DNA of 64,000 nucleotides, taken from Escherichia phage Pollock. A model generated the notes under the pieces. It saw only the letters and a list, made by a program, of their open reading frames with translations, did not search any database and was not told the DNA's origin. A program made the translations under genes and the position numbers. Where the stretch lies: the sequence record NC_027381.1. One strand, 5' to 3'. Below, piece by piece: positions 8,225 through 49,295 of the stretch (positions are counted from its first letter, which is position 1; the number at the start of each line of letters is the position of its first letter).

Positions 8225-8476
8225 ATGGCATTTAGTAAATTATGGAAAGCTATCCTAGTATTCACTTTTTTGTTAATTGGTAGTGCTTATAGTAAGGAAC
8301 ACACATTAAATCCTATATCTGAAGAAATGGATGTTCAAAGAATCCATGATGATGAAGCAGGCGTTACTTGCTGGATTTTATATGTTCCTAATACATCTAG
8401 ATATCAAATGCCTGACCATTACAGTATGAGTTGTTTACCTAATACTGTAATCAAACCAGAAGCAATTAAAAAATAA
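8225..8476 (+). CDS. Small secreted protein, 83 aa
   Basis: N-terminal signal-peptide-like stretch AILVFTFLLIGSAYS. Confidence 0.4.
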   Translation: MAFSKLWKAILVFTFLLIGSAYSKEHTLNPISEEMDVQRIHDDEAGVTCWILYVPNTSRYQMPDHYSMSCLPNTVIKPEAIKK

Positions 8477-8502
8477 ATAATTAAAACTTATAACTTCATA
8501 CT

Positions 8503-8532
8503 AAGCCTCCTTTTATGGAGGCTTTTAGTTTT
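8503..8532 (+). terminator. Rho-independent terminator
   Basis: aagcctcc-ttttat-ggaggctt stem-loop followed by a T-rich run. Confidence 0.65.
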
Positions 8533-8579
8533 ATACAAATGCTTCTTATACAGGAGCATCTTTATAAAACTATGTAGGA

Positions 8580-9035
8580 TTGGATATGAAAGTTAAACTG
8601 AAAGTACTTCCATTTAATAACACCAATATGAGCTTACCTAAACCAGCAACAGATGGTTCTGCTGGTATTGATTTACGAGCCAATACAGTTATGCCATTCG
8701 AACTTAAACCGGGAGAAACTACTCTGGTAAATACTGGTTTAGCTATCCATCTGGATGATGTTCACTATGCAGGTATGATTTTACCTCGTTCTGGGTTAGG
8801 GCATAAACATGGTATTGTGCTTGGAAATCTTACAGGTCTCATTGATAGTGATTATCAAGGGGAACTGATGGTAAGCCTCTGGAATCGCTCTACAAAGCCT
8901 TTTACTATTAATCCAGGTGACCGTATTGCTCAGTTAGTTATTGTGCCTGTAATGCAGCCTGAATTTGTTATAGTAGACTCTTTTGAAGCTACTGAAAGAG
9001 GCGAAGGTGGTTTCAACTCTACTGGAGTTAAGTGA
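8580..9035 (+). CDS. dut: dUTP pyrophosphatase (dUTPase)
   Basis: Conserved trimeric dUTPase motifs: [33 protein letters not shown], and C-terminal glycine-rich motif. Confidence 0.85.
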
Positions 9036-9208
9036 TGACTGAACCAATGAGTAAGTTTGAGCTAGAAAGACATATCCATAATCTTAAGGAATATGATTCC
9101 AAGATTGCTGGTCATGAATCTGAAGTAGTTCGTCTACAAGAAGAACGTCGAGAGTACATTAATCGACACAATCTTAACAAGATTGCAGAGAAGGTATTTC
9201 CTGCTTAA
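9035..9208 (+). CDS. Small hypothetical protein, 57 aa (hand-called)
   Basis: ATG overlapping the dUTPase stop; charged helical sequence. Confidence 0.3.
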   Translation: MTEPMSKFELERHIHNLKEYDSKIAGHESEVVRLQEERREYINRHNLNKIAEKVFPA

Positions 9209-9234
9209 GCGCCTACGGCGCTCTCTTTGGTTAT
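9209..9234 (+). promoter_or_regulatory. Second-class hairpin motif (TAC loop plus TCTCTTTGG)
   Basis: gcgcc-TAC-ggcgc followed by tctctttggttat; similar elements at 10011 and 18161; function unknown. Confidence 0.3.
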
Positions 9235-9263
9235 AGCTACCTTCGGGTAGCTTTTTATTTTTT
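9235..9263 (+). terminator. Rho-independent terminator
   Basis: agctacc-ttcg-ggtagct stem-loop followed by TTTTTATTTTTT. Confidence 0.75.
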
Positions 9264-9582
9264 GGGGAAAATGATGGCTAAAGAACCAATCTCCAAACTA
9301 TGTATTCCTATTGGAGATAAATATGAAATTACCTCTAATGGGTATTCATATGTATTAGTTGAGAAAAGAACTGTTCAATCAGGAGTTAAAGCTGGGACTA
9401 CTGCTTCCAGTAATGTTGGTTATTTTCAGACTTTAGGTTCTCTTGCTAAACAGTTAATTAATAAAGAAGTATGTGAAACTAACATTACTTCTTTACAACA
9501 ATTAAATGAGCGTATCGAAGAACTAGGTATTGGTATAGCTCAGTTACTTGAACAACTTGTTAAACAAAATGAAGGTAAATGA
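9262..9582 (+). CDS. Hypothetical protein (likely true start ATG at 9271)
   Basis: ORF after a terminator; C-terminal coiled-coil-like sequence. Confidence 0.4.
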   Translation: MGKMMAKEPISKLCIPIGDKYEITSNGYSYVLVEKRTVQSGVKAGTTASSNVGYFQTLGSLAKQLINKEVCETNITSLQQLNERIEELGIGIAQLLEQLVKQNEGK

Positions 9583-10006
9583 AATGGCACTAACCAATGA
9601 ACAAAAGCAAGCACTTGAAATTGTAGCTGACTTGATTAAACAACAAGAGAATCCTCTAGTTGTTTCGGCTGGATTGGCTTTGCTGTTTAAATTGGAAATT
9701 TCCAATATGTCTCCTCGTGAAGTATTGGAACAGATTGGTAAAGAACTTAAAGCTGAACATGACCATGATTCAGGATGTACTTGTCTTGAACGTCATCATT
9801 TCTTATTGAACGTTCTGAACAATCTGGAAAAACAGAAGTTCAATGATGAAGTTACTTATAAATTGTTGAGTACTGCTGAAGATGCTTGGGACACGTTTGA
9901 AGAACGTTATGAACGTATTCCTACTGTTACCTATACACCTTCGCAATTCACCATTCAAACTGGTGTACCGGGTATTTATTTTATTCACCCTGCTGTACAG
10001 AAGTAA
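9548..10006 (+). CDS. Hypothetical protein, about 140 to 152 aa
   Basis: ORF; the start may be the downstream in-frame Met (MALTNEQ). Confidence 0.45.
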   Translation: MNNLLNKMKVNEMALTNEQKQALEIVADLIKQQENPLVVSAGLALLFKLEISNMSPREVLEQIGKELKAEHDHDSGCTCLERHHFLLNVLNNLEKQKFNDEVTYKLLSTAEDAWDTFEERYERIPTVTYTPSQFTIQTGVPGIYFIHPAVQK

Positions 10007-10010
10007 TTCT

Positions 10011-10030
10011 CGCACTTCGTGCGTCTCTTA
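10011..10030 (+). promoter_or_regulatory. Second-class hairpin motif (TTC loop plus TCTCTT)
   Basis: cgcac-TTC-gtgcg followed by tctcttagg, then a terminator-like hairpin. Confidence 0.3.
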
Positions 10031-10053
10031 GGAGTCATTTTGGCTCCTTTTTA
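10031..10053 (+). terminator. Rho-independent terminator
   Basis: ggagtca-ttt-tggctcc stem-loop followed by TTTTT. Confidence 0.6.
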
Positions 10054-10078
10054 TTAACATCTGAAAGAGGAATTTATT

Positions 10079-10528
10079 ATGGGTTTATTTGGTTTTGGTA
10101 AGAAAAAAGTTAGTCAGAAAGTAGAACAAATGCGAGCTACCGCTGGAAAGATGGAAAATAAAGATATCGTTGAAGCAGGTATCGCTGTAATGGTTGGTGT
10201 AGCATTTGCAGATAAATCTTGCTCTGATGAAGAAATTGAAATTCTGGAAAATATCATTGAATCTGATGACACCTTTGCAGAATGGCGTTCTGAAACTCAG
10301 GCAATGACTAATAAATGGATAAGCAAATTCCAGAAATTCCATCGTGGTGCAATGATGGATTTGGAAAAAGAATTTAACGACCTGAAAGGAGACCCTGCTG
10401 GTCAGAAACGTGCTTTGCTGTGTGGTATTGCCGTAGCAGAAGATGATGAAGGCATGGGTGCAGAAGAAAAAGCTTTTCTTGAAAAAGTTGCAGGTTGGGC
10501 AGGCATCCGTTTGGATACTTTACTGTAA
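10079..10528 (+). CDS. TerB-like protein (tellurite-resistance TerB domain)
   Basis: Two-repeat architecture comparable to TerB: AGIAVMVGVAFADKSCSDEEIEILENII and ALLCGIAVAEDDEGMGAEEKAFLEKVA, length about 150 aa. Confidence 0.55.
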   Translation: MGLFGFGKKKVSQKVEQMRATAGKMENKDIVEAGIAVMVGVAFADKSCSDEEIEILENIIESDDTFAEWRSETQAMTNKWISKFQKFHRGAMMDLEKEFNDLKGDPAGQKRALLCGIAVAEDDEGMGAEEKAFLEKVAGWAGIRLDTLL

Positions 10529-10690
10529 ATGGCACTGAAATTACGAGGAATAATAGTAGCCGTATTATTGTTCCTTGTAGTTGCTATCGACTTCACTAGT
10601 AAGGTGATGTCGATACTAGCAGACGGTGTATTAGTTGCTGCTGTAATAGCAATAATGTGGCCTGTATTTAAAAGGACTAACAATGAGTAA
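10529..10690 (+). CDS. Small membrane protein, 53 aa (hand-called)
   Basis: Start overlaps the TerB-like stop; hydrophobic IIVAVLLFLVVAI and VLVAAVIAIMW segments. Confidence 0.3.
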   Translation: MALKLRGIIVAVLLFLVVAIDFTSKVMSILADGVLVAAVIAIMWPVFKRTNNE

Positions 10691-11015
10691 ACCAAAAATT
10701 GAAATTGAAAAGATTGATGCTTTACGTAATGCATTTAATGCAATGTACGTATCTCATCAAGAAATATCTGTAGGTGATATTGTTATTCTACACCCTTCAG
10801 TTCCGGGAATTTTTAAAGTTCCTACTGAAGAACGTCCGGGTATCGTTACTAAATTTCTACCAAAACCAATGTATGCGTATGAAATGGCTGACGATACACG
10901 TCCAAGCCATCCTTCTTCAGCAATACAATATGATTGTGTAATCAATATCATTAATGACGATGGTGAAATTGTTCCATTCTTAATGGATTCTCGTCGCCTC
11001 CTTAAAGTTAATTAA
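10683..11015 (+). CDS. Hypothetical protein, 110 aa
   Basis: ORF; terminator follows at 11021..11050. Confidence 0.45.
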   Translation: MSKPKIEIEKIDALRNAFNAMYVSHQEISVGDIVILHPSVPGIFKVPTEERPGIVTKFLPKPMYAYEMADDTRPSHPSSAIQYDCVINIINDDGEIVPFLMDSRRLLKVN

Positions 11016-11020
11016 TCTAT

Positions 11021-11050
11021 AAGCCTACTTAGTAGTAGGCTTTCATTTTT
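11021..11050 (+). terminator. Rho-independent terminator
   Basis: aagcctact-tagt-agtaggctt stem-loop followed by a T-rich run. Confidence 0.7.
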
Positions 11051-11069
11051 CATCTGTAAAGGTAATCCT

Positions 11070-11153
11070 ATGCGTCCTACAGCTATTAAAAAAGCTATTG
11101 AAAGAGCTTTTGCAGCAGGACTTGTTCCTTTTATTAAAGGTAGTCCGGGTATT
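11070..11153 (+). CDS. MoxR-like AAA+ ATPase, exon 1 (N4 gp24-like)
   Basis: Encodes MRPTAIKKAIERAFAAGLVPFIKGSPGI, ending in the first half of a Walker A motif (GSPGI) right before an in-frame TGA. Confidence 0.65.
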
Positions 11154-11543
11154 TGATTTTACAAGATACCCTAAGCAGTGATGCTTAGTAAAAAATCCCT
11201 TGAATTGCTGGAAACCCTTAAAGCTGAATTAACTACTGCGAGTTGAAAAACAAAGCCAATGTTTAAAAATAATTCAGATATGTAGGCAATCAGCAGCCAA
11301 GCTCCTAAGGTTTAGGATATTAAGCTATGGAGAAGGTTCAACGACTAGGCGTAAGCCGTACACTCAAGTGAGTGGAAGTGGGGGACTCTTTACAAACTTA
11401 CCACCATGGAATACCTTTTGTATTTGCAAAGAAAGGTCTATGTCGTAAATGTAGTAAAGATGAAGATATAGTCTCGTCTTATGTGAAAGCATAAGCTGTT
11501 TAATAAACAGAGGGTAGCTTAACGAACTACCCTGAAGATTACG
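11154..11543 (+). ncRNA. Group I intron, ORF-less (intron 1 of the MoxR-like ATPase gene)
   Basis: Contains td-type core elements: P-like AATTGCTGGAAA, Q-like AATCAGCAGCC, R-like GTTCAACGACTAG, S-like AAGATATAGTCT; 5-prime exon ends in U and intron ends in G; splicing restores Walker A GSPGIGKS. Confidence 0.7.
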
Positions 11544-11786
11544 GGTAAATCTGCAATTATTCGTCAAATTGCAAAAGAAGCTAAATTATTGGTTATTGAC
11601 CTTCGTTTAGGTCAATGTGACCCAACTGATTTATTGGGATTTCCAAATATTGAGAATGGACGGTCTGTATATCATCCACCAAAAGATATTCCAATTATTG
11701 GGGATGAAATTCCTAAAGGATATAACGGTTGGCTGTTATTCCTTGATGAAATGAATACAGCACCTAAAGCTGTTCAGGCTGCTGCT
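11544..11786 (+). CDS. MoxR-like AAA+ ATPase, exon 2
   Basis: Encodes GKSAIIRQIAKEAKLLVIDLRL...GWLLFLDEMNTAPKAVQAAA: Walker A completion plus Walker B LLFLDEMN, matching MoxR LLADEINRAPPKTQSALLE. Confidence 0.7.
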
Positions 11787-12630
11787 TAAATTAATAGGCA
11801 TTTATGGGGGAAACCTCATATCTAAAGCTACTTAAAACGGGGAACTCTTAGTAGTGTATATACACTAAAGACAATCCGTTGCTAAATAGGAATTAAGATG
11901 CAAGAAGTTTGGAAAGCTATTCCCGGATATGAGAAAGAATATGAAATTTCTACTCATGGACGGATTAAGAGTTTAGATAGAGTCGTTCCTTGTAAACATG
12001 GCACTCGCCTTGTTAAAGGAAAATTATTAAAAACCTATATTAATCGAAAAGGGTATTTAATTGTTACTTTATCTAAAGAAAATAAACTGAAAACATATAC
12101 CGTACATCAGTTAGTTGCTCTTACATTTATTCCAAATTTCATTAAAGGCACAGAAATTAATCATAAAGACGGTAATAAATCCAATCCAGTATTAGATAAT
12201 TTAGAAATTAGCAACCCTAGCCATAACCAGTTACATGCTATAGCTACAGGTCTTAAAGCAAAGGTTGGTAAGAGTAAATACCACAATGTAACTTACATTA
12301 AAAACCCACGGGCTAAGAAAAAGTGGGCTGCAAGTATAAGTTATAATGGGGAAAAATCTTTTGGATGGAAAACATTTATGACAGAAGAAGAAGCTGCAAG
12401 ATATGTAGATAAACTTCTTGATGAAATAGGTGATACTTCCCGTTTAAGAAATTTCTAATTAATTCCTTAAATGCCCAACGACTAGTCGAAAGACGTAGGC
12501 TCAAGTGAGTCGAAAAAGTAGCTCCCCAAACAAGTAAAGTTGTGGGGATTGATATAGTCTGCTCTATATAGAAATATATAGCTGGATTAATTATCCGGGT
12601 AATGATTAACGACCATTACTGAACATAAGG
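11787..12630 (+). mobile_element. Group I intron carrying an HNH homing endonuclease (intron 2 of the MoxR-like ATPase gene)
   Basis: R-like CAACGACTAG and S-like GATATAGTCT elements downstream of the HNH ORF; exon ends in U, intron ends in G; splicing yields AVQAAAYKLLDRMVGQT, matching MoxR QSALLEAMQERQVTIGGQT. Confidence 0.7.
11898..12458 (+). CDS. Intron-encoded HNH homing endonuclease
   Basis: N-terminal WKAIPGYEKEYEISTHGRIKS (NUMOD4-like), HNH core HQLVALTF...NHKDGNKSNPVLDNLE...HNQLH, C-terminal AP2-like WAASISYNGEKSFGWKTFMTEEEAARYVD. Confidence 0.8.
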   Translation: MQEVWKAIPGYEKEYEISTHGRIKSLDRVVPCKHGTRLVKGKLLKTYINRKGYLIVTLSKENKLKTYTVHQLVALTFIPNFIKGTEINHKDGNKSNPVLDNLEISNPSHNQLHAIATGLKAKVGKSKYHNVTYIKNPRAKKKWAASISYNGEKSFGWKTFMTEEEAARYVDKLLDEIGDTSRLRNF

Positions 12631-13320
12631 TATAAACTGTTGGACCGTATGGTAGGACAAACCAAATTACATCCTAGTGTTTATATTGCTGCTGCTGGTA
12701 ACAAAGATACAGATGGAGCAATTACTACTACTATGAGTAGTGCAACTCTATCTCGTATTGTTAGTATGGAACTAGAAGTTAACTTTAATGATTGGGCTGT
12801 ATGGGCATTAGCCAATAACATTGACCATCGCATCATGGGATATCTTCAGTTCAAACCAGAAGCATTCCATAAATTTGACCCTAAAAATCTTAAAGAACCT
12901 TTTCCATGCCCACGTACATGGGAGTTCATTAACCGTGCTATTAATGGATTAGATGTATCTTTAAATTCTGATTTGGGTTTATTGTCTGGAATTATTGGTA
13001 ATGGCACTGCTCGTGAATTTATTGAGTATTGTGCTATCTATGGTGAGATTGCTTCCTTTGAAGAAATTATGTCTAATCCAGAAAGCATTGTCATCAAAGA
13101 CAGACCAGACATTAAGTATGCATATGCTGGTTTTGTAGCTTCTCGCATTACCCCTGAAAATGCATCTCAATTAATGAAATTCATTAATCGACTGCCCGTT
13201 GAATTTCAGATTGTAACTTTGAGTAATGCTTTTAAAGCTAAACCTCTCATTTCTCAAGTTCCAGAAATAATGGAATGGATTACTCGTTATGCCAACGAGT
13301 CAGGTGAAGGGATGCTCTAA
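12631..13320 (+). CDS. MoxR-like AAA+ ATPase, exon 3
   Basis: Encodes YKLLDRMVGQTKLHPSVYIAAAGNKDTDGA..., the sensor and C-terminal region of an AAA_5/MoxR ATPase; an in-frame stop lies a few codons upstream of 12631. Confidence 0.7.
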   Translation, partial: YKLLDRMVGQTKLHPSVYIAAAGNKDTDGAITTTMSSATLSRIVSMELEVNFNDWAVWALANNIDHRIMGYLQFKPEAFHKFDPKNLKEPFPCPRTWEFINRAINGLDVSLNSDLGLLSGIIGNGTAREFIEYCAIYGEIASFEEIMSNPESIVIKDRPDIKYAYAGFVASRITPENASQLMKFINRLPVEFQIVTLSNAFKAKPLISQVPEIMEWITRYANESGEGML

Positions 13321-15966: not shown

Positions 15967-17409
15967 ATGGCTAAGACTCTTGAAAATGAAGAAAAGAAAG
16001 TTCACGTTGCTGACGTTGTTAAACACGGTGAGAAACTGATTCTCCCTGAAAACATGTCTATGTCTGATGCAATTGATTTGCTGAAGCGTCGTCAGAAGTA
16101 CGAAGAAGAAGAAGTAATTGTTCGTCGTACTTATAACGTATTCCCATGGGATGGTGCTCATGCACTGATGCTGGCTCTGACTGAACGTTATGGTTGGGCT
16201 GCTGCTGAAGCAACTCCGGGATTCTTTGGTTCTAACCCTCCGCAAATGCTGGATGTTCAGGTTGGTTATGGTCAAACCAAGAAAGTACCTTGGGGTCGTT
16301 TCTCTTTGCCTCAAGTAGATGGATTTGTTCAGTGCTCTGCACAGAAGAAAGATGGTCGTATTAGCTTTGAACTAGTTGGTAAAGTTCTGCGTAAAGACGA
16401 AAAGACCATCGAACTGCTATTTGATACTGTAGAAAAAACTCTGCGTACTAATTCCATTTATATGGGTCAGGCTATCAAAATTCGTTTCCGTGATAACGAT
16501 GGTGAACTGTTGGAAATGCCTGAACCAGAATTTATGGATTTACGTGGTATCAGCCGTAATTCTCTGGTTTATTCTGATGATGTTCAAAATCTGATTGAAA
16601 CTAATCTGTTTACTCCGATTGAGCGTGTAGCAGATTGCATCATCAATGAAATTCCAGTTAAACGTGGTGTACTGCTTGGTGGACCATATGGTACTGGTAA
16701 AACTATGGCTGCAACTGTTGCTGCTTCTCTGGCTACCAGCGTTGGTGTTACTTACGTATATGTACCTCGTTGTGATGAACTGTCTGATGCAATTCAGTTT
16801 GCTAAGCAGTATAGCGATAAAGCGTGTGTAATCTTCTGCGAAGATATTGACCGTGCTGTATCTGGTGAACGTAGTGTTAAGATGGATGACATCCTGAATA
16901 TTCTGGATGGTATTGATACTAAAACGTCTCGCATCATCACTGTTCTGACTACTAACCATCTGGAAAATATTAACCCAGCAATGCTGCGTCCGGGTCGTCT
17001 GGATGCAATCATTGATGTTACTCCGCCAGATGCTAAAGCAGTTGAAAAACTGGTACGTCTGTATGGTCGTGATACCATTGCTGCTGATGCAGACCTGACT
17101 CTGGTTGGTGAAGCTCTGGCAGGTACTATCCCTGCGGTAATTGCAGAAGTTGTTAAACGTGCTAAGTTGCACCAACTTCAGTATCAAGAGCCGGGTACTA
17201 TGATTAAAGAAATCAGTGGTCAAGCTCTGCTGGATTCTGCTCTGACTATTCAAGCACAGCGTAAGCTGCTGGAAGAACAGTCTAAACCAAAAGTTAAAGA
17301 ACCTACCTTTAACGAAACTATTGCTTCTGCCGTTGCTCCTGCAATTGAAGCTGCGGTAAGCAAAGTTACTAATCAGGTATCTGAACTGCACGAGCGCATC
17401 TGCGACTGA
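15967..17409 (+). CDS. AAA-family ATPase, 480 aa, codon usage suggests high expression
   Basis: Walker A GGPYGTGKT; Walker B VIFCEDIDR; second region of homology NPAMLRPGRLD typical of classic AAA proteins; strong preference for CTG, CGT and GGT codons unlike most neighbours. Confidence 0.65.
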   Translation: MAKTLENEEKKVHVADVVKHGEKLILPENMSMSDAIDLLKRRQKYEEEEVIVRRTYNVFPWDGAHALMLALTERYGWAAAEATPGFFGSNPPQMLDVQVGYGQTKKVPWGRFSLPQVDGFVQCSAQKKDGRISFELVGKVLRKDEKTIELLFDTVEKTLRTNSIYMGQAIKIRFRDNDGELLEMPEPEFMDLRGISRNSLVYSDDVQNLIETNLFTPIERVADCIINEIPVKRGVLLGGPYGTGKTMAATVAASLATSVGVTYVYVPRCDELSDAIQFAKQYSDKACVIFCEDIDRAVSGERSVKMDDILNILDGIDTKTSRIITVLTTNHLENINPAMLRPGRLDAIIDVTPPDAKAVEKLVRLYGRDTIAADADLTLVGEALAGTIPAVIAEVVKRAKLHQLQYQEPGTMIKEISGQALLDSALTIQAQRKLLEEQSKPKVKEPTFNETIASAVAPAIEAAVSKVTNQVSELHERICD

Positions 17410-48107: not shown

Positions 48108-49295
48108 TTACATCTGAGCTACAGTTTTGTACAAACCAATCCACTCAGGACGCAGAATCAGAGAACCGTAGTACCACTTGATAGAAGTGAAACCTAATTC
48201 ACCGAATGGGTCAGAGTAAGATGCAGTAGCTTCACCCGGTTTTTTAGTGTAGGTAACAAACTTAACAGTCTTACCATCAGTCTGGAAGCCAATAGTAGTA
48301 AAGGAACCAGAACCAACACACAGCATTGGGAATACGTCATACTTATCATCAGTAGCGTAGTAACCCGGATTGATAGTTACAGAATCACCTGCACCTGCCC
48401 ATTTCATCATCTTAGGTACAACGATGATACGGAAAGAAGCAATAGAACCAATCTCACCTTTTAACAGATTACCTGCATCTGCATAATGCTGTACTGGAAT
48501 GAATGCTGCATTACCAAATGGGTCTTGCATCTTACGTAACATCAGTTCCAGTTCAGAACCAATATACAGAGCACGAGCACCTGGGATAACACGAGTATCA
48601 GTCATTAGAGAACCTTTAATCATCTTCGTCTGAAGAGGACACAGGTTATCGTTTAAAGTGATACCTAACTTAACCAGACCATCATAGGTAACTACGTTAG
48701 GAGAATTACCTTCACCAGTCATTTCACTGTTTTCTGTAGCTGTACCCGGATAGCGGATAACACCAGCACCATTCAACAGGTCAATCTGTAACTGGTCTTC
48801 AGTGATTTCATTAGCACCTTTAACAGCTTCCTGAATCAAATGCATATCCAATTCTTCATCAGAATCGAAATCCATTGATTCTTGGGTCCATTCATAGAAG
48901 AAACCAAATTTCTTAATAGTGCCTTCTAATTGAATACGTGTAAAACCAACACGGTTAACACGACCACCATTCTCAGTCAGAGTTGGTAGTTTACCCGGAA
49001 TAGTACCAATGTCTTTACTAGAGCCGTACAGGTTACCTTTATTATCAGAGGTAGTACCATCAGCATTAATACCTTGGTCATTCATGTTACGGTCATCCAG
49101 TAACGGAACATAATGGTACATCTTAATTTTTTTACCCATATGCTTTGGCATAGCAGTGACATCAGCAAGCTGGCTGAAGTACATTTCTTTTGCTGCATCT
49201 ACCAAAGCCTTCTTATAGTAATAATCCAGACGAATCTGAGGACCAATGGTAGAAGCCTTTGGACTGGAATCAGCTCCGGGGGTATTGTACTGCAT
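48108..49295 (-). CDS. Major capsid protein (N4 gp56 position)
   Basis: 395-aa ORF with highly-expressed codon usage, followed by a strong terminator, preceded by an acidic scaffold-like gene and the portal gene. Confidence 0.6.
   Translation of the reverse strand: MQYNTPGADSSPKASTIGPQIRLDYYYKKALVDAAKEMYFSQLADVTAMPKHMGKKIKMYHYVPLLDDRNMNDQGINADGTTSDNKGNLYGSSKDIGTIPGKLPTLTENGGRVNRVGFTRIQLEGTIKKFGFFYEWTQESMDFDSDEELDMHLIQEAVKGANEITEDQLQIDLLNGAGVIRYPGTATENSEMTGEGNSPNVVTYDGLVKLGITLNDNLCPLQTKMIKGSLMTDTRVIPGARALYIGSELELMLRKMQDPFGNAAFIPVQHYADAGNLLKGEIGSIASFRIIVVPKMMKWAGAGDSVTINPGYYATDDKYDVFPMLCVGSGSFTTIGFQTDGKTVKFVTYTKKPGEATASYSDPFGELGFTSIKWYYGSLILRPEWIGLYKTVAQM

What the first reader, a model, noticed from the sequence alone, without database searches (positions are those of the whole stretch)
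10079..10528. Phage-encoded TerB-like protein
The protein has the two-repeat organisation of tellurite-resistance TerB (AGIAVMVGVAFADKSCSDEEIEILENII and ALLCGIAVAEDDEGMGAEEKAFLEKVA). TerB-family proteins are stress-associated and membrane-proximal; its role in a lytic phage is unclear. Its codon usage is also expression-biased.
Basis: partly seen in the sequence, partly recalled or inferred. Interest (0 to 1): 0.45.

Follow-up and report, generated by a model that had tools for sequence, protein, structure and literature searches.

The report
Phage Pollock TciA (TerB-like) gene
The gene really does encode a TerB-type protein, but it is the already-published TciA gene of the N4-like coliphage Pollock; it is always paired with a tiny membrane protein, its function is still untested, and it most likely acts at the host inner membrane.

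Summary
ORF 10079-10528 (149 aa) matches Pfam TerB above the curated cutoff, aligns end to end with the solved Klebsiella TerB (2JXU), and folds into a TerB-clan helical bundle. Its two halves are demonstrably homologous (HHalign E 3e-8), and its codon usage is expression-biased (z = +4.6). It is not new: the window is Escherichia phage Pollock, the protein is deposited as "TciA", and the 2015 genome paper already asked what a P1 TciA/TerB homologue does in a lytic N4-like phage.

What I add:
- The gene is the first half of a two-gene module. Its stop abuts the start of a 53-aa two-helix membrane protein (TciB, DUF3927) with invariant D21/S28/D32.
- The pair recurs in P1, phage-plasmids, lambdoid prophages and other phages (78 of 79 TciB loci).
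- Among near-identical Ithacavirus backbones the TerB gene alone is swapped between three allele classes (75% and 37% identity), while TciB stays 96-100% identical.
- Within an allele class, selection is strongly purifying (dN/dS 0.04).
- Only TerB, not TciB, is codon-optimised.

Best guess, unproven: an abundant acidic, membrane-peripheral TerB-fold protein working with a scarce membrane partner as an exclusion or membrane-surveillance module. The rivals are an anti-defence decoy, metal handling, and division or lysis control.

The parts
10030..10058 (+). Terminator-like hairpin (AGGAGTC-ATT-TTGGCTCCT) plus T-run TTTTTATTAAC, 21 nt upstream of the gene. It is the upstream boundary of the TerB-TciB-orf110 block.
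   Evidence: 8 pairs, 4 GC; 9 such sites in 8400-11700 against 1.6 expected from shuffles; sequence.
10067..10070 (+). Shine-Dalgarno GAGG, 8 nt before the ATG of the TerB/TciA gene.
   Evidence: Read directly (..aaagaggaatttattATG). The downstream TciB start has no comparable SD.
10079..10528 (+). tciA: 149-aa TerB-fold protein (Pollock TciA, AIX12386.1 / YP_009152128.1).
10157..10258 (+). Repeat 1 (res 27-60): helix, acidic loop (FADKSCS), helix; near-invariant D45 and E52.
10391..10492 (+). Repeat 2 (res 105-138): helix, acidic loop (EDDEGMG), helix; near-invariant E130.
10529..10690 (+). tciB: 53-aa DUF3927 protein with two hydrophobic segments. Its ATG directly abuts the tciA stop (TAAATG). 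D21, S28 and D32 are invariant.
   Evidence: Pfam PF13064 E 1.1e-14; 41.5% identical to P1 TciB; hydropathy; alignment A3; 100% identical to CPT_Pollock28.
10683..11015 (+). orf110 (Pollock gp29, PHROG_22456, unknown function). Its start overlaps the tciB stop by 8 nt and it lies in the same terminator-bracketed block. Whether it belongs to the module is doubtful, because its allele pattern does not follow tciA or tciB.
11021..11052 (+). Terminator-like hairpin (AAGCCTACT-TAGT-AGTAGGCTT) plus TCATTTTTCA; downstream boundary of the block, just before the ATPase gene (ATG 11071).
   Evidence: sequence.

Best explanation
SHOWN: this is the tciA gene of Escherichia phage Pollock. It encodes a stand-alone 149-aa TerB-fold protein built from two homologous helix / acidic-loop / helix repeats. 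It is the first gene of a two-gene module whose second gene, tciB, encodes a 53-aa DUF3927 protein with two hydrophobic helices and an invariant D21-S28-D32 stripe. The module is shared with P1 (tciAB), P1-like and Klebsiella phage-plasmids, lambdoid prophages (in the Q-to-lysis 'moron' slot) and scattered virulent phages. It is accessory and exchangeable: three tciA allele classes sit in otherwise near-identical Ithacavirus backbones next to a constant tciB. It is nevertheless under strong purifying selection, and tciA alone is codon-optimised for high expression. INFERRED from synteny with N4: it is a middle-class gene transcribed with the replication genes. INFERRED mechanism: TciA is an abundant, acidic, cation-binding protein that associates reversibly with the cytoplasmic face of the inner membrane, as reported for TerB. 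There it works with the scarce integral-membrane TciB, which would act as anchor or ion-conducting effector. Together they would change or monitor the state of the membrane in the infected cell to the phage's benefit. The most likely benefit is excluding competing phages or channel-forming colicins (a superinfection-exclusion or 'membrane-surveillance' module), with TciA as the variable specificity component. Identity and anatomy: about 0.97. The functional part: about 0.35-0.4.
For: Identity and fold. Module: DUF3927 hit. A TerB-type ORF ends at the TciB start in 78 of 79 informative viral TciB loci (many are near-duplicates: 35 unique TerB and 48 unique TciB sequences). The stop and start overlap by 4 nt in 69 loci, by 1 nt in 9, and abut in 4. 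An overlapping or abutting small 2-TM ORF also follows distant family members, including ones with no Pfam DUF3927 hit. TciB has invariant D21/S28/D32. Accessory, exchangeable character: B2, SP-058 and SP-076 have dUTPase 96-99%, DUF5405 98-100% and TciB 96-100% identity (dS 0-0.15), but TerB at 75% and 37% (dS 0.57-2.9). DNA similarity to SP-076 starts at the tciA stop codon. The one locus without TerB keeps its last ~35 nt. tciABC is one of eight hypervariable regions of P1-like phage-plasmids, alongside res-mod, sim and tail-fibre genes (PMC9603915). Selection and expression: dN/dS 0.04 between window and B2; CAI z = +4.6 for tciA against -2.6 for tciB; SD present before tciA only. Exclusion or surveillance reading: the ter cluster gives phage inhibition and colicin resistance. 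TerB domains occur in the defence systems Bunzi, Shango and Dionysus, are proposed to be amphitropic membrane sensors, and in Dionysus are paired with a membrane pore-former. The module sits in the moron slot between Q and holin in lambdoid prophages. It is dispensable for P1 plaque formation (PMC10695390).
Against: No experiment on any TciA or TciB was found. There is no PADLOC defence-model hit. An AlphaFold2 TerB-linker-TciB fusion gave no sign of an interface: pTM fell from 0.79 to 0.58 and the TerB N-terminus stayed disordered. TerB alleles recombine freely against a constant TciB, which argues against a tightly co-adapted interface. The codon asymmetry argues against a 1:1 complex. Some family members have no small membrane ORF downstream (PMBT3, P0014 and P0053 contexts). 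In the ter operon, the phage-inhibition and colicin phenotypes were mapped to terZ, terC and terD rather than to terB. Metal binding by this protein is inferred only from conserved carboxylates.
Confidence: 0.4

Rival explanations
1. Anti-defence decoy. The phage floods the cell with a stand-alone TerB-fold protein that titrates or poisons host TerB-based immunity (the ter-operon phage-inhibition function, or Shango, Bunzi and Dionysus-type systems), for example by forming non-productive heterodimers.
For: tciA is very strongly expression-biased while tciB is not. Allele replacement among near-identical phages looks like an arms race. The ter operon and terC reduce phage growth. The Dionysus TerB protein DinB is predicted to be a homodimer and is essential for defence.
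Against: All 81 nearest cluster representatives are stand-alone ~145-aa proteins; the six whose contigs were examined lie in phage-like or uninformative short contigs, and none is a domain of a larger defence protein. No PADLOC model matches. Operonic TerB is only distantly similar (29 bits to 2JXU; plasmid hits are 98% non-mobilizable records, mostly ~90-130 kb, consistent with phage-plasmids rather than IncHI2 ter plasmids). A decoy would not need a conserved, translationally coupled membrane partner. The module is also carried by temperate phages in moron positions.
Confidence: 0.2
2. Divalent-cation handling. TciA (carboxylate-rich loops) and TciB (membrane-embedded D/S/D stripe) form a miniature analogue of the TerB-TerC pair that buffers or moves Mn2+, Zn2+ or Ca2+ during infection, for phage enzymes or to counter metal stress.
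For: Near-invariant D45/E52/E130 in TciA and invariant D21/S28/D32 in TciB. TerC-TerB is described as a central complex, and terC contributes to Zn and Mn resistance. The protein is acidic overall (28 D+E against 20 K+R).
Against: There are no metal-binding data for any TciA. No homology between TciB and TerC was detected (only DUF3927 at E <= 1). A housekeeping-type role fits poorly with allele swapping, patchy distribution and frequent loss.
Confidence: 0.15
3. Control of host cell division or lysis timing. The pair perturbs the division or envelope machinery (as the P1 gene name suggests) or modulates holin triggering.
For: The P1 annotation reads 'inhibition of cell division'. The Yersinia ter-operon paper's title links the operon to filamentous growth in macrophages (PMC4633105, listed; I did not read it). 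In lambdoid prophages the module lies directly upstream of the holin, endolysin and spanin genes.
Against: The name is by analogy only. In Pollock and P1 the module is nowhere near the lysis genes. CRISPRi knock-down in P1 had no effect on plaque formation.
Confidence: 0.1
4. Functionless passenger DNA picked up from temperate phages.
For: Patchy distribution; frequent loss in P1-like elements; one locus with the TerB body replaced.
Against: dN/dS 0.04 at dS 0.67 between window and B2; strong codon adaptation in an AT-rich genome with GC3 of only 0.22; invariant residues conserved across 25-30% identical homologues.
Confidence: 0.02

Closest known systems
Phage P1 TciA/TciB(/TciC) (Lobocka et al. 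2004 annotation) and the same pair in P7, D6, phage-plasmids and lambdoid prophages
   Same: Full-length homology of TciA (28.9% identity over 99% of the query; tblastn E 1e-14). It is immediately followed by a DUF3927 TciB homologue (41.5% identity), with the stop and start abutting or overlapping. Function is untested in both.
   Different: There is no TciC; the third gene is an unrelated 110-aa ORF. The host genome is a virulent N4-like podophage rather than a temperate phage. The window's TciA allele class is rare (12 clusters at 90% identity) and only ~30-34% identical to the common prophage classes, whereas its TciB is 60-75% identical to theirs.
TerB of the terZABCDE(F) tellurite / phage-inhibition / colicin-resistance operon (Klebsiella TerB, PDB 2JXU)
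   Same: Same length class (149 against 151-153 aa), collinear alignment 10-141 with 10-142, the same Pfam family and the same two-repeat acidic motif.
   Different: Only about 29 bits of similarity. There are no terC, terD or terZ neighbours; the partner is a 53-aa DUF3927 protein instead of the multi-pass TerC. The plasmid hits are 98% non-mobilizable, mostly ~90-130 kb records (consistent with phage-plasmids); no ter-operon plasmid appears among the 25 listed.
TerB-domain proteins of anti-phage systems: Bunzi BnzA, Shango SngA, Dionysus DinB
   Same: A TerB fold combined with membrane components (TM helices in BnzA; the pore-forming DinC and TM protein DinA in Dionysus), with a proposed membrane-surveillance role.
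   Different: There is no match to PADLOC models. There is no helicase or ATPase (Shango) and no MAEBL or pore-forming-toxin partner (Dionysus). The gene is encoded by phages, not by chromosomal defence islands.
TerB-clan crystal structures 2H5N (PG1108) and 2OU3 (COG3793)
   Different: 13-21% sequence identity; bacterial proteins of unknown function, so they add nothing about mechanism.
DjlA (TM helix + TerB-like domain + J domain)
   Same: A membrane-tethered TerB-like domain; weak NCBIfam hit (E 0.01) to the DjlA TerB-like region.
   Different: No J domain; tethering, if any, would be in trans through TciB; the score is far below the curated cutoff (15 against 162 bits).

Membership tests
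Pfam TerB (PF05099) / TerB-like fold | Profile match above the curated gathering score | tested here: met
   32.4 bits against 24.4, E 1.3e-7, profile positions 3-108 of 118.
Pfam TerB (PF05099) / TerB-like fold | Two internally homologous helix-loop-helix repeats carrying conserved acidic residues (A-D-G ... E) | tested here: met
   HHalign half against half: probability 95%, E 2.9e-8. D45, E52 and E130 are >=90% conserved. In the window's allele the first motif reads ADK and the second AEDDEG.
Pfam TerB (PF05099) / TerB-like fold | All-alpha TerB-clan three-dimensional fold | tested here: met
Pfam TerB (PF05099) / TerB-like fold | Divalent-metal binding by the acidic loops | not testable with these tools
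   Inferred from conserved carboxylates only; the proposal comes from Anantharaman et al. 2012, which I could not read here (one search failed).
TerB sensu stricto (terZABCDE operon component) | Encoded inside a ter operon next to terC, terD and terZ | tested here: not met
   The neighbours are dUTPase, DUF5405, orf152, DUF3927, orf110 and a MoxR-like ATPase. The same holds in B2, SP-058 and SP-076. I did not profile-scan every ORF of the window for TerC or TerD.
TerB sensu stricto (terZABCDE operon component) | Contributes to tellurite resistance | not testable with these tools
   No experiment exists for any TciA-type protein in the searched literature.
P1-type TciA/TciB module | ~140-150-aa stand-alone TerB-like protein homologous to P1 TciA over its full length | tested here: met
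   deposited name 'TciA'.
P1-type TciA/TciB module | Immediately followed by, and translationally linked to, a DUF3927 (TciB) gene | tested here: met
   PF13064 E 1.1e-14; TAAATG junction; the same arrangement in 78 of 79 TciB loci.
P1-type TciA/TciB module | Third small membrane ORF TciC | tested here: not met
   tblastn with P1 TciC finds it only in P1 itself. TciC is probably not a defining part of the module, since most loci lack it.
TerB-containing anti-phage defence systems (Shango, Bunzi, Dionysus) | Match to the system's protein models and presence of the partner genes (helicase + ATPase; TM / lipid-binding TerB; MAEBL-TM + pore-forming toxin) | tested here: not met
   PADLOC-DB: no TerB-system hit, only a chance-level AbiP2 match at E 0.027; no such partners are in the neighbourhood. 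PADLOC v2.0.0 predates Dionysus.

The most novel reading that the evidence does not exclude
TciA-TciB is a minimal, phage-borne two-component membrane system. The exchangeable TerB-fold protein would be the specificity or sensor subunit, and the constant 2-TM D/S/D microprotein the membrane effector. Temperate phages, phage-plasmids and virulent N4-like phages would all use it as a weapon in phage-versus-phage exclusion or against TerB-based host immunity. That would make it a widespread and so far uncharacterised class of phage accessory system, and a handle on what TerB domains actually sense.
Probability: 0.25. Interest if true: 0.65.

Novelty: already known. Interest (0 to 1): 0.3.

Why it matters
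TerB domains are turning up in several newly validated anti-phage systems (Bunzi, Shango, Dionysus), yet nobody knows what the domain does. The phage TciA/TciB pair is the smallest natural context for a TerB fold: one soluble protein plus one 50-aa membrane protein. It occurs in genetically tractable phages (P1, lambdoid prophages, N4-like phages) and shows natural allele swaps in isogenic backgrounds. That makes it a convenient experimental entry point. As a discovery, however, the finding is not new: it re-derives the deposited annotation and a remark in the 2015 Pollock genome paper.

Tried and rejected
1. Physical TerB-TciB contact by structure prediction. An AF2 model of a TerB-GS-linker-TciB fusion with a partly paired alignment (A4) gave pTM 0.58 against 0.79 for TerB alone. 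The disordered TerB N-terminus did not change, and TciB came out as one long helix. The result is uninformative or negative. No PAE or coordinates were available and no control run was possible.
2. Defence-system membership: no PADLOC hit.
3. TciB as a TerC fragment: Pfam finds only DUF3927 at E <= 1.
4. Rosetta-stone fusions of DUF3927 with TerB or other domains: none among the best 120 of 790 homologues; nearly all are 47-65 aa, with one of 84 aa.
5. Moron-type autonomy in prophages. A 9/12 sigma-70-like site lies upstream and a hairpin plus T-run downstream of the pair in L007, but the promoter count is at chance level (2 against 1.7). Inconclusive.
6. In-situ positive selection as the cause of TerB divergence was rejected. 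Synonymous divergence is also high (dS 0.57-2.9) while the flanks have dS 0-0.15, so the alleles were replaced by recombination.
7. Host-derived composition as the cause of the codon bias was rejected: GC3 is 0.22.
8. orf110 as a third module component is unlikely. Its two allele classes segregate independently of tciA and tciB.
9. Literature. No functional study of TciA, TciB or DUF3927 was found. The P1 genome paper and Anantharaman et al. 2012 are not held.

Full report
**1. The observation**

The ORF at 10079-10528 (+) exists as described: ATG start, TAA stop, 149 aa, preceded by a GAGG Shine-Dalgarno 8 nt upstream.

A 91-sequence family alignment was built from an exhaustive HMMER search (81 cluster representatives at E <= 1e-3, nearly all 140-155 aa single-domain proteins). 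It gives the consensus MFG..F.KK...K.ENKD..EA...LVA.ADG.....E...L ... A.ADG.I...E...L..IA..LGL.L. D45, E52 and E130 are conserved in at least 90% of sequences.

Comparing a profile of the N-terminal half with one of the C-terminal half gives HHalign probability 95% and E = 2.9e-8, aligning residues 27-60 with 105-138. The two-repeat organisation is therefore real and statistically supported.

**2. TerB family assignment**

- Pfam TerB (PF05099): 32.4 bits, above the 24.4-bit gathering score.
- PHROG_632 "tellurite resistance": E 2.2e-43 over the full length.
- The only solved TerB, Klebsiella 2JXU, aligns collinearly (10-141 with 10-142, E 8e-6).
- An AlphaFold2 model from the family alignment is confident (pLDDT 87.5, pTM 0.79). 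It has six helices, and each repeat forms a helix / acidic loop / helix unit with loops at 43-49 (FADKSCS) and 121-127 (EDDEGMG).

**3. Codon usage**

It groups with the probable major capsid and SSB genes.

Against 2000 synonymous recodings drawn from the phage's own codon usage, it lies at z = +4.6, with 0 of 2000 reaching the observed value. Its neighbours lie at z = 1.0-1.5. GC3 is only 0.22, so this is not host-like composition. It is a preference for the T- and A-ending optimal codons (GGT, CGT, GAA, AAA, GCA/GCT).

**4. Which genome, and what was already known**

The window carries a 3537-aa virion RNA polymerase ORF and is related to Ithacavirus phages. The downstream 53-aa protein is 100% identical to CPT_Pollock28. 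The TerB protein is, residue for residue, GenBank AIX12386.1 / YP_009152128.1, "TciA [Escherichia phage Pollock]". The window matches the first 64 kb of a 68,365-bp UViG. Pollock is classified as Schitoviridae, Humphriesvirinae, Pollockvirus.

[quoted passage not shown] The finding therefore re-derives a published observation and an open question that is still open. I found no functional study of TciA, TciB or DUF3927.

**5. The gene is half of a two-gene module**

Its stop codon abuts the ATG (TAAATG) of a 53-aa ORF at 10529-10690. That ORF has no Shine-Dalgarno of its own, has two hydrophobic segments, and matches Pfam DUF3927 (E 1.1e-14). DUF3927 is the family of P1 TciB, to which it is 41.5% identical.

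Evidence for the pairing:
- I searched viral contigs with TciB and inspected the 80 loci returned. A TerB/TciA-type ORF ends at the TciB start in 78 of the 79 loci with enough upstream sequence. These are not independent: there are 35 unique TerB and 48 unique TciB sequences, and two or three TerB copies are truncated.
- The stop and start overlap by 4 nt (ATGA) in 69 loci, by 1 nt in 9, and abut in 4.
- The single exception, L031, keeps the last ~35 nt of TerB and all of TciB. The TerB body has been replaced by an unrelated 82-aa Cys-rich ORF.
- Of six distant TciA-family members whose contigs I looked up, four are followed by an overlapping or abutting small 2-TM ORF. Two of these have no Pfam hit on record; one of the two carries the same motif.
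- Across TciB sequences only 25-77% identical, D21, S28 and D32 are invariant and L16 and G33 nearly so. The spacing i, i+7, i+11 puts them on one helical face.
- The reverse does not hold. Some TerB-type genes have no such partner (Pseudomonas phage PMBT3 and the P0014 and P0053 contexts). TciB appears to depend on TciA, but not the other way round.
- DUF3927 homologues (790 at E <= 0.01) are nearly all stand-alone proteins of 47-65 aa (one of 84 aa) in Enterobacteriaceae. None of the best 120 shows a second Pfam domain.

**6. Where the module occurs**

- In P1 it follows tRNA genes and precedes ban.
- In lambdoid phages (JLK-2012 and the commonest prophage type, L007) it sits between the Q antiterminator and the holin, endolysin and spanin genes, again near tRNA genes. 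This is the classic moron slot.
- It is in 527 plasmid records, 518 of them non-mobilizable; the listed records are mostly ~90-130 kb (range 51-247 kb), consistent with phage-plasmids.
- The common prophage allele's DNA matches 62 of 5426 complete E. coli genomes.
- It also occurs in Pantoea, Pseudomonas, Vibrio and jumbo Salmonella phages.
- In Pollock it lies among the replication and nucleotide-metabolism genes, downstream of the RNAP II subunit genes. By synteny with N4 this makes it a middle gene (inference). The block tciA-tciB-orf110 is bracketed by hairpin plus T-run sites at 10030 and 11021.

**7. Evolutionary behaviour**

B2, SP-058 and SP-076 are almost identical around this locus. 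dUTPase is 96-99% identical, DUF5405 98-100% and TciB 96-100%, with dS of 0.00-0.15. Their TerB genes, by contrast, are 75% (B2 against SP-058) and 37% (either against SP-076) identical, with dS of 0.57-2.9.

High synonymous divergence confined to one ORF means allele replacement by recombination, not fast in-situ evolution. The breakpoints sit at the TerB ORF: megablast similarity between the window and SP-076 begins within a few bases of the tciA stop codon.

The SP-076 allele is 66% identical to the common prophage allele. The window's allele class is rare, with only 12 clusters at 90% identity, whereas the window's TciB is 60-75% identical to prophage TciB. Within the allele class, window against B2 gives 95% amino-acid identity at dS 0.67, so dN/dS is 0.04, stronger purifying selection than on the flanking genes (0.10-0.21).

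Independent work on P1-like phage-plasmids lists tciABC among eight hypervariable regions, together with res-mod, simABC and the tail-fibre genes, with loss in about half of one subgroup (PMC9603915). CRISPRi in P1 scores tciA, tciB and tciC as non-essential (PMC10695390).

**8. Expression asymmetry**

Only tciA is codon-optimised. tciB lies at z = -2.6, though it is short, so this estimate is noisy. tciB also lacks its own SD and depends on coupling to tciA. This suggests much more TciA than TciB, which argues against a simple 1:1 complex.

**9. Mechanism**

What is shown:
- A TerB-fold protein with paired acidic loops.
- A nearly obligate, translationally coupled 2-TM partner with invariant carboxylates.
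- Accessory and exchangeable status, combined with strong purifying selection.
- High expression of TciA.

What is inferred from the literature on the family:
- TerB is membrane-associated or amphitropic, and forms a core complex with the membrane protein TerC.
- The ter cluster gives phage inhibition and colicin resistance.
- TerB domains in Bunzi, Shango and Dionysus are proposed to be membrane sensors, and in Dionysus the TerB protein works with a pore-forming membrane protein.

My best reading is that TciA is an abundant, cation-binding, membrane-peripheral protein working with scarce TciB (anchor or ion-conducting effector) to alter or monitor the inner membrane of the infected or lysogenic cell. 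The most probable pay-off is exclusion of competing phages or colicins, with TciA as the variable specificity determinant (about 0.35-0.4).

Rivals:
- An anti-defence decoy against TerB-based host immunity (0.2). High TciA dosage and allele turnover favour it. The conserved membrane partner, the lack of similarity to any defence protein, and carriage by temperate phages argue against it.
- Divalent-cation handling as a mini TerB-TerC analogue (0.15).
- Division or lysis-timing control (0.1).
- Functionless passenger DNA (0.02), contradicted by the selection and codon data.

An AlphaFold2 fusion model gave no evidence of a TerB-TciB interface (pTM 0.58; N-terminus unchanged). I treat this as inconclusive.

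**10. Comparison and verdict**

The protein is a member of the Pfam TerB family and of the P1-type TciA/TciB module; all tested defining features were met except the dispensable TciC. It is not TerB sensu stricto, because it has no ter operon context, and it is not a component of the known TerB-containing defence systems, because it has no PADLOC match and none of their partner genes.

- Novelty: already known (deposited annotation plus the 2015 paper).
- What this analysis adds: the near-obligate TciB pairing with its invariant D/S/D stripe, the allele-cassette behaviour of tciA against a constant tciB, and the codon and SD asymmetry.
- Interest: modest (0.3). The module could become a useful minimal model for TerB-domain function if someone tests it.

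Noticed in passing
window 11071-13320: The MoxR-like AAA ATPase gene just downstream is split into three exons (11071-11153, 11544-11786, 12631-13317) that together account for all 338 residues of the uninterrupted SP-076 homologue. Intervening sequence 1 (11154-11543, 390 nt) is a group I intron (Rfam RF00028, 101 bits, E 2e-26) that cuts the Walker A motif (GSPGI|GKS). Intervening sequence 2 (11787-12630, 844 nt) has two sub-threshold RF00028 hits flanking a 186-aa HNH-type ORF (11898-12458). The Pollock genome paper mentions an intron only in the DNA polymerase gene.
   Followed up: partly
window 15967-17409: This 480-aa ORF (PHROG_10440, unknown function, weak ATPase-like similarity) has the strongest codon adaptation in the window: CAI 0.546, z = +17 against the recoding null. 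That is higher than the probable major capsid gene (48108-49295, z = +11). It is an apparently very highly expressed gene of unknown function.
   Followed up: partly
window 8400-11700: Hairpin plus T-run sites are enriched (9 against 1.6 expected) and sit 20-50 nt upstream of successive gene starts (8503, 9235, 10030, 11021). Sigma-70-like promoters are strongly depleted (1 against 11.7 expected). This fits transcription by the phage's own RNA polymerase.
   Followed up: no
window 10683-11015 (orf110, Pollock gp29): The ORF overlaps the tciB stop by 8 nt and has two allele classes that segregate differently from tciA. The window is 71% identical to SP-076 but ~48% to B2 and SP-058, whereas tciA is 95% to B2 and 34% to SP-076. 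The whole block is a recombination mosaic.
   Followed up: partly
window 9548-10006 (orf152): Weak, sub-threshold Pfam hit to the C-terminal domain of DNA polymerase III delta (PF21694, E 0.005, 17 bits against a cutoff of 27). It is only ~50% identical to its Ithacavirus counterparts. From memory, N4 gp8 targets the host delta subunit, so a delta mimic would be worth a look, but this may well be chance.
   Followed up: no
L031 2564-2812 (IMGVR_UViG_2571042713_000003): In one prophage the TerB body is replaced by an 82-aa Cys-rich (zinc-ribbon-like) ORF. The last ~35 nt of TerB and an intact TciB remain, making this an orphan tciB.
   Followed up: partly
L002 (P1), L085 (JLK-2012), L007, L052: tciAB modules in temperate phages repeatedly sit next to tRNA genes: tRNA-Asn and Thr upstream and Met downstream in P1; Asn, Thr and Gly upstream in JLK-2012; tRNA-Arg(tct) immediately downstream in L007. 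This suggests the pair travels with a tRNA cassette.
   Followed up: no
L093 3450-3845: A distant TciA-family gene is followed (1-nt overlap) by a 131-aa protein made of a tandem duplication of a 2-TM unit, with a motif different from DUF3927. It may be an alternative membrane partner.
   Followed up: no
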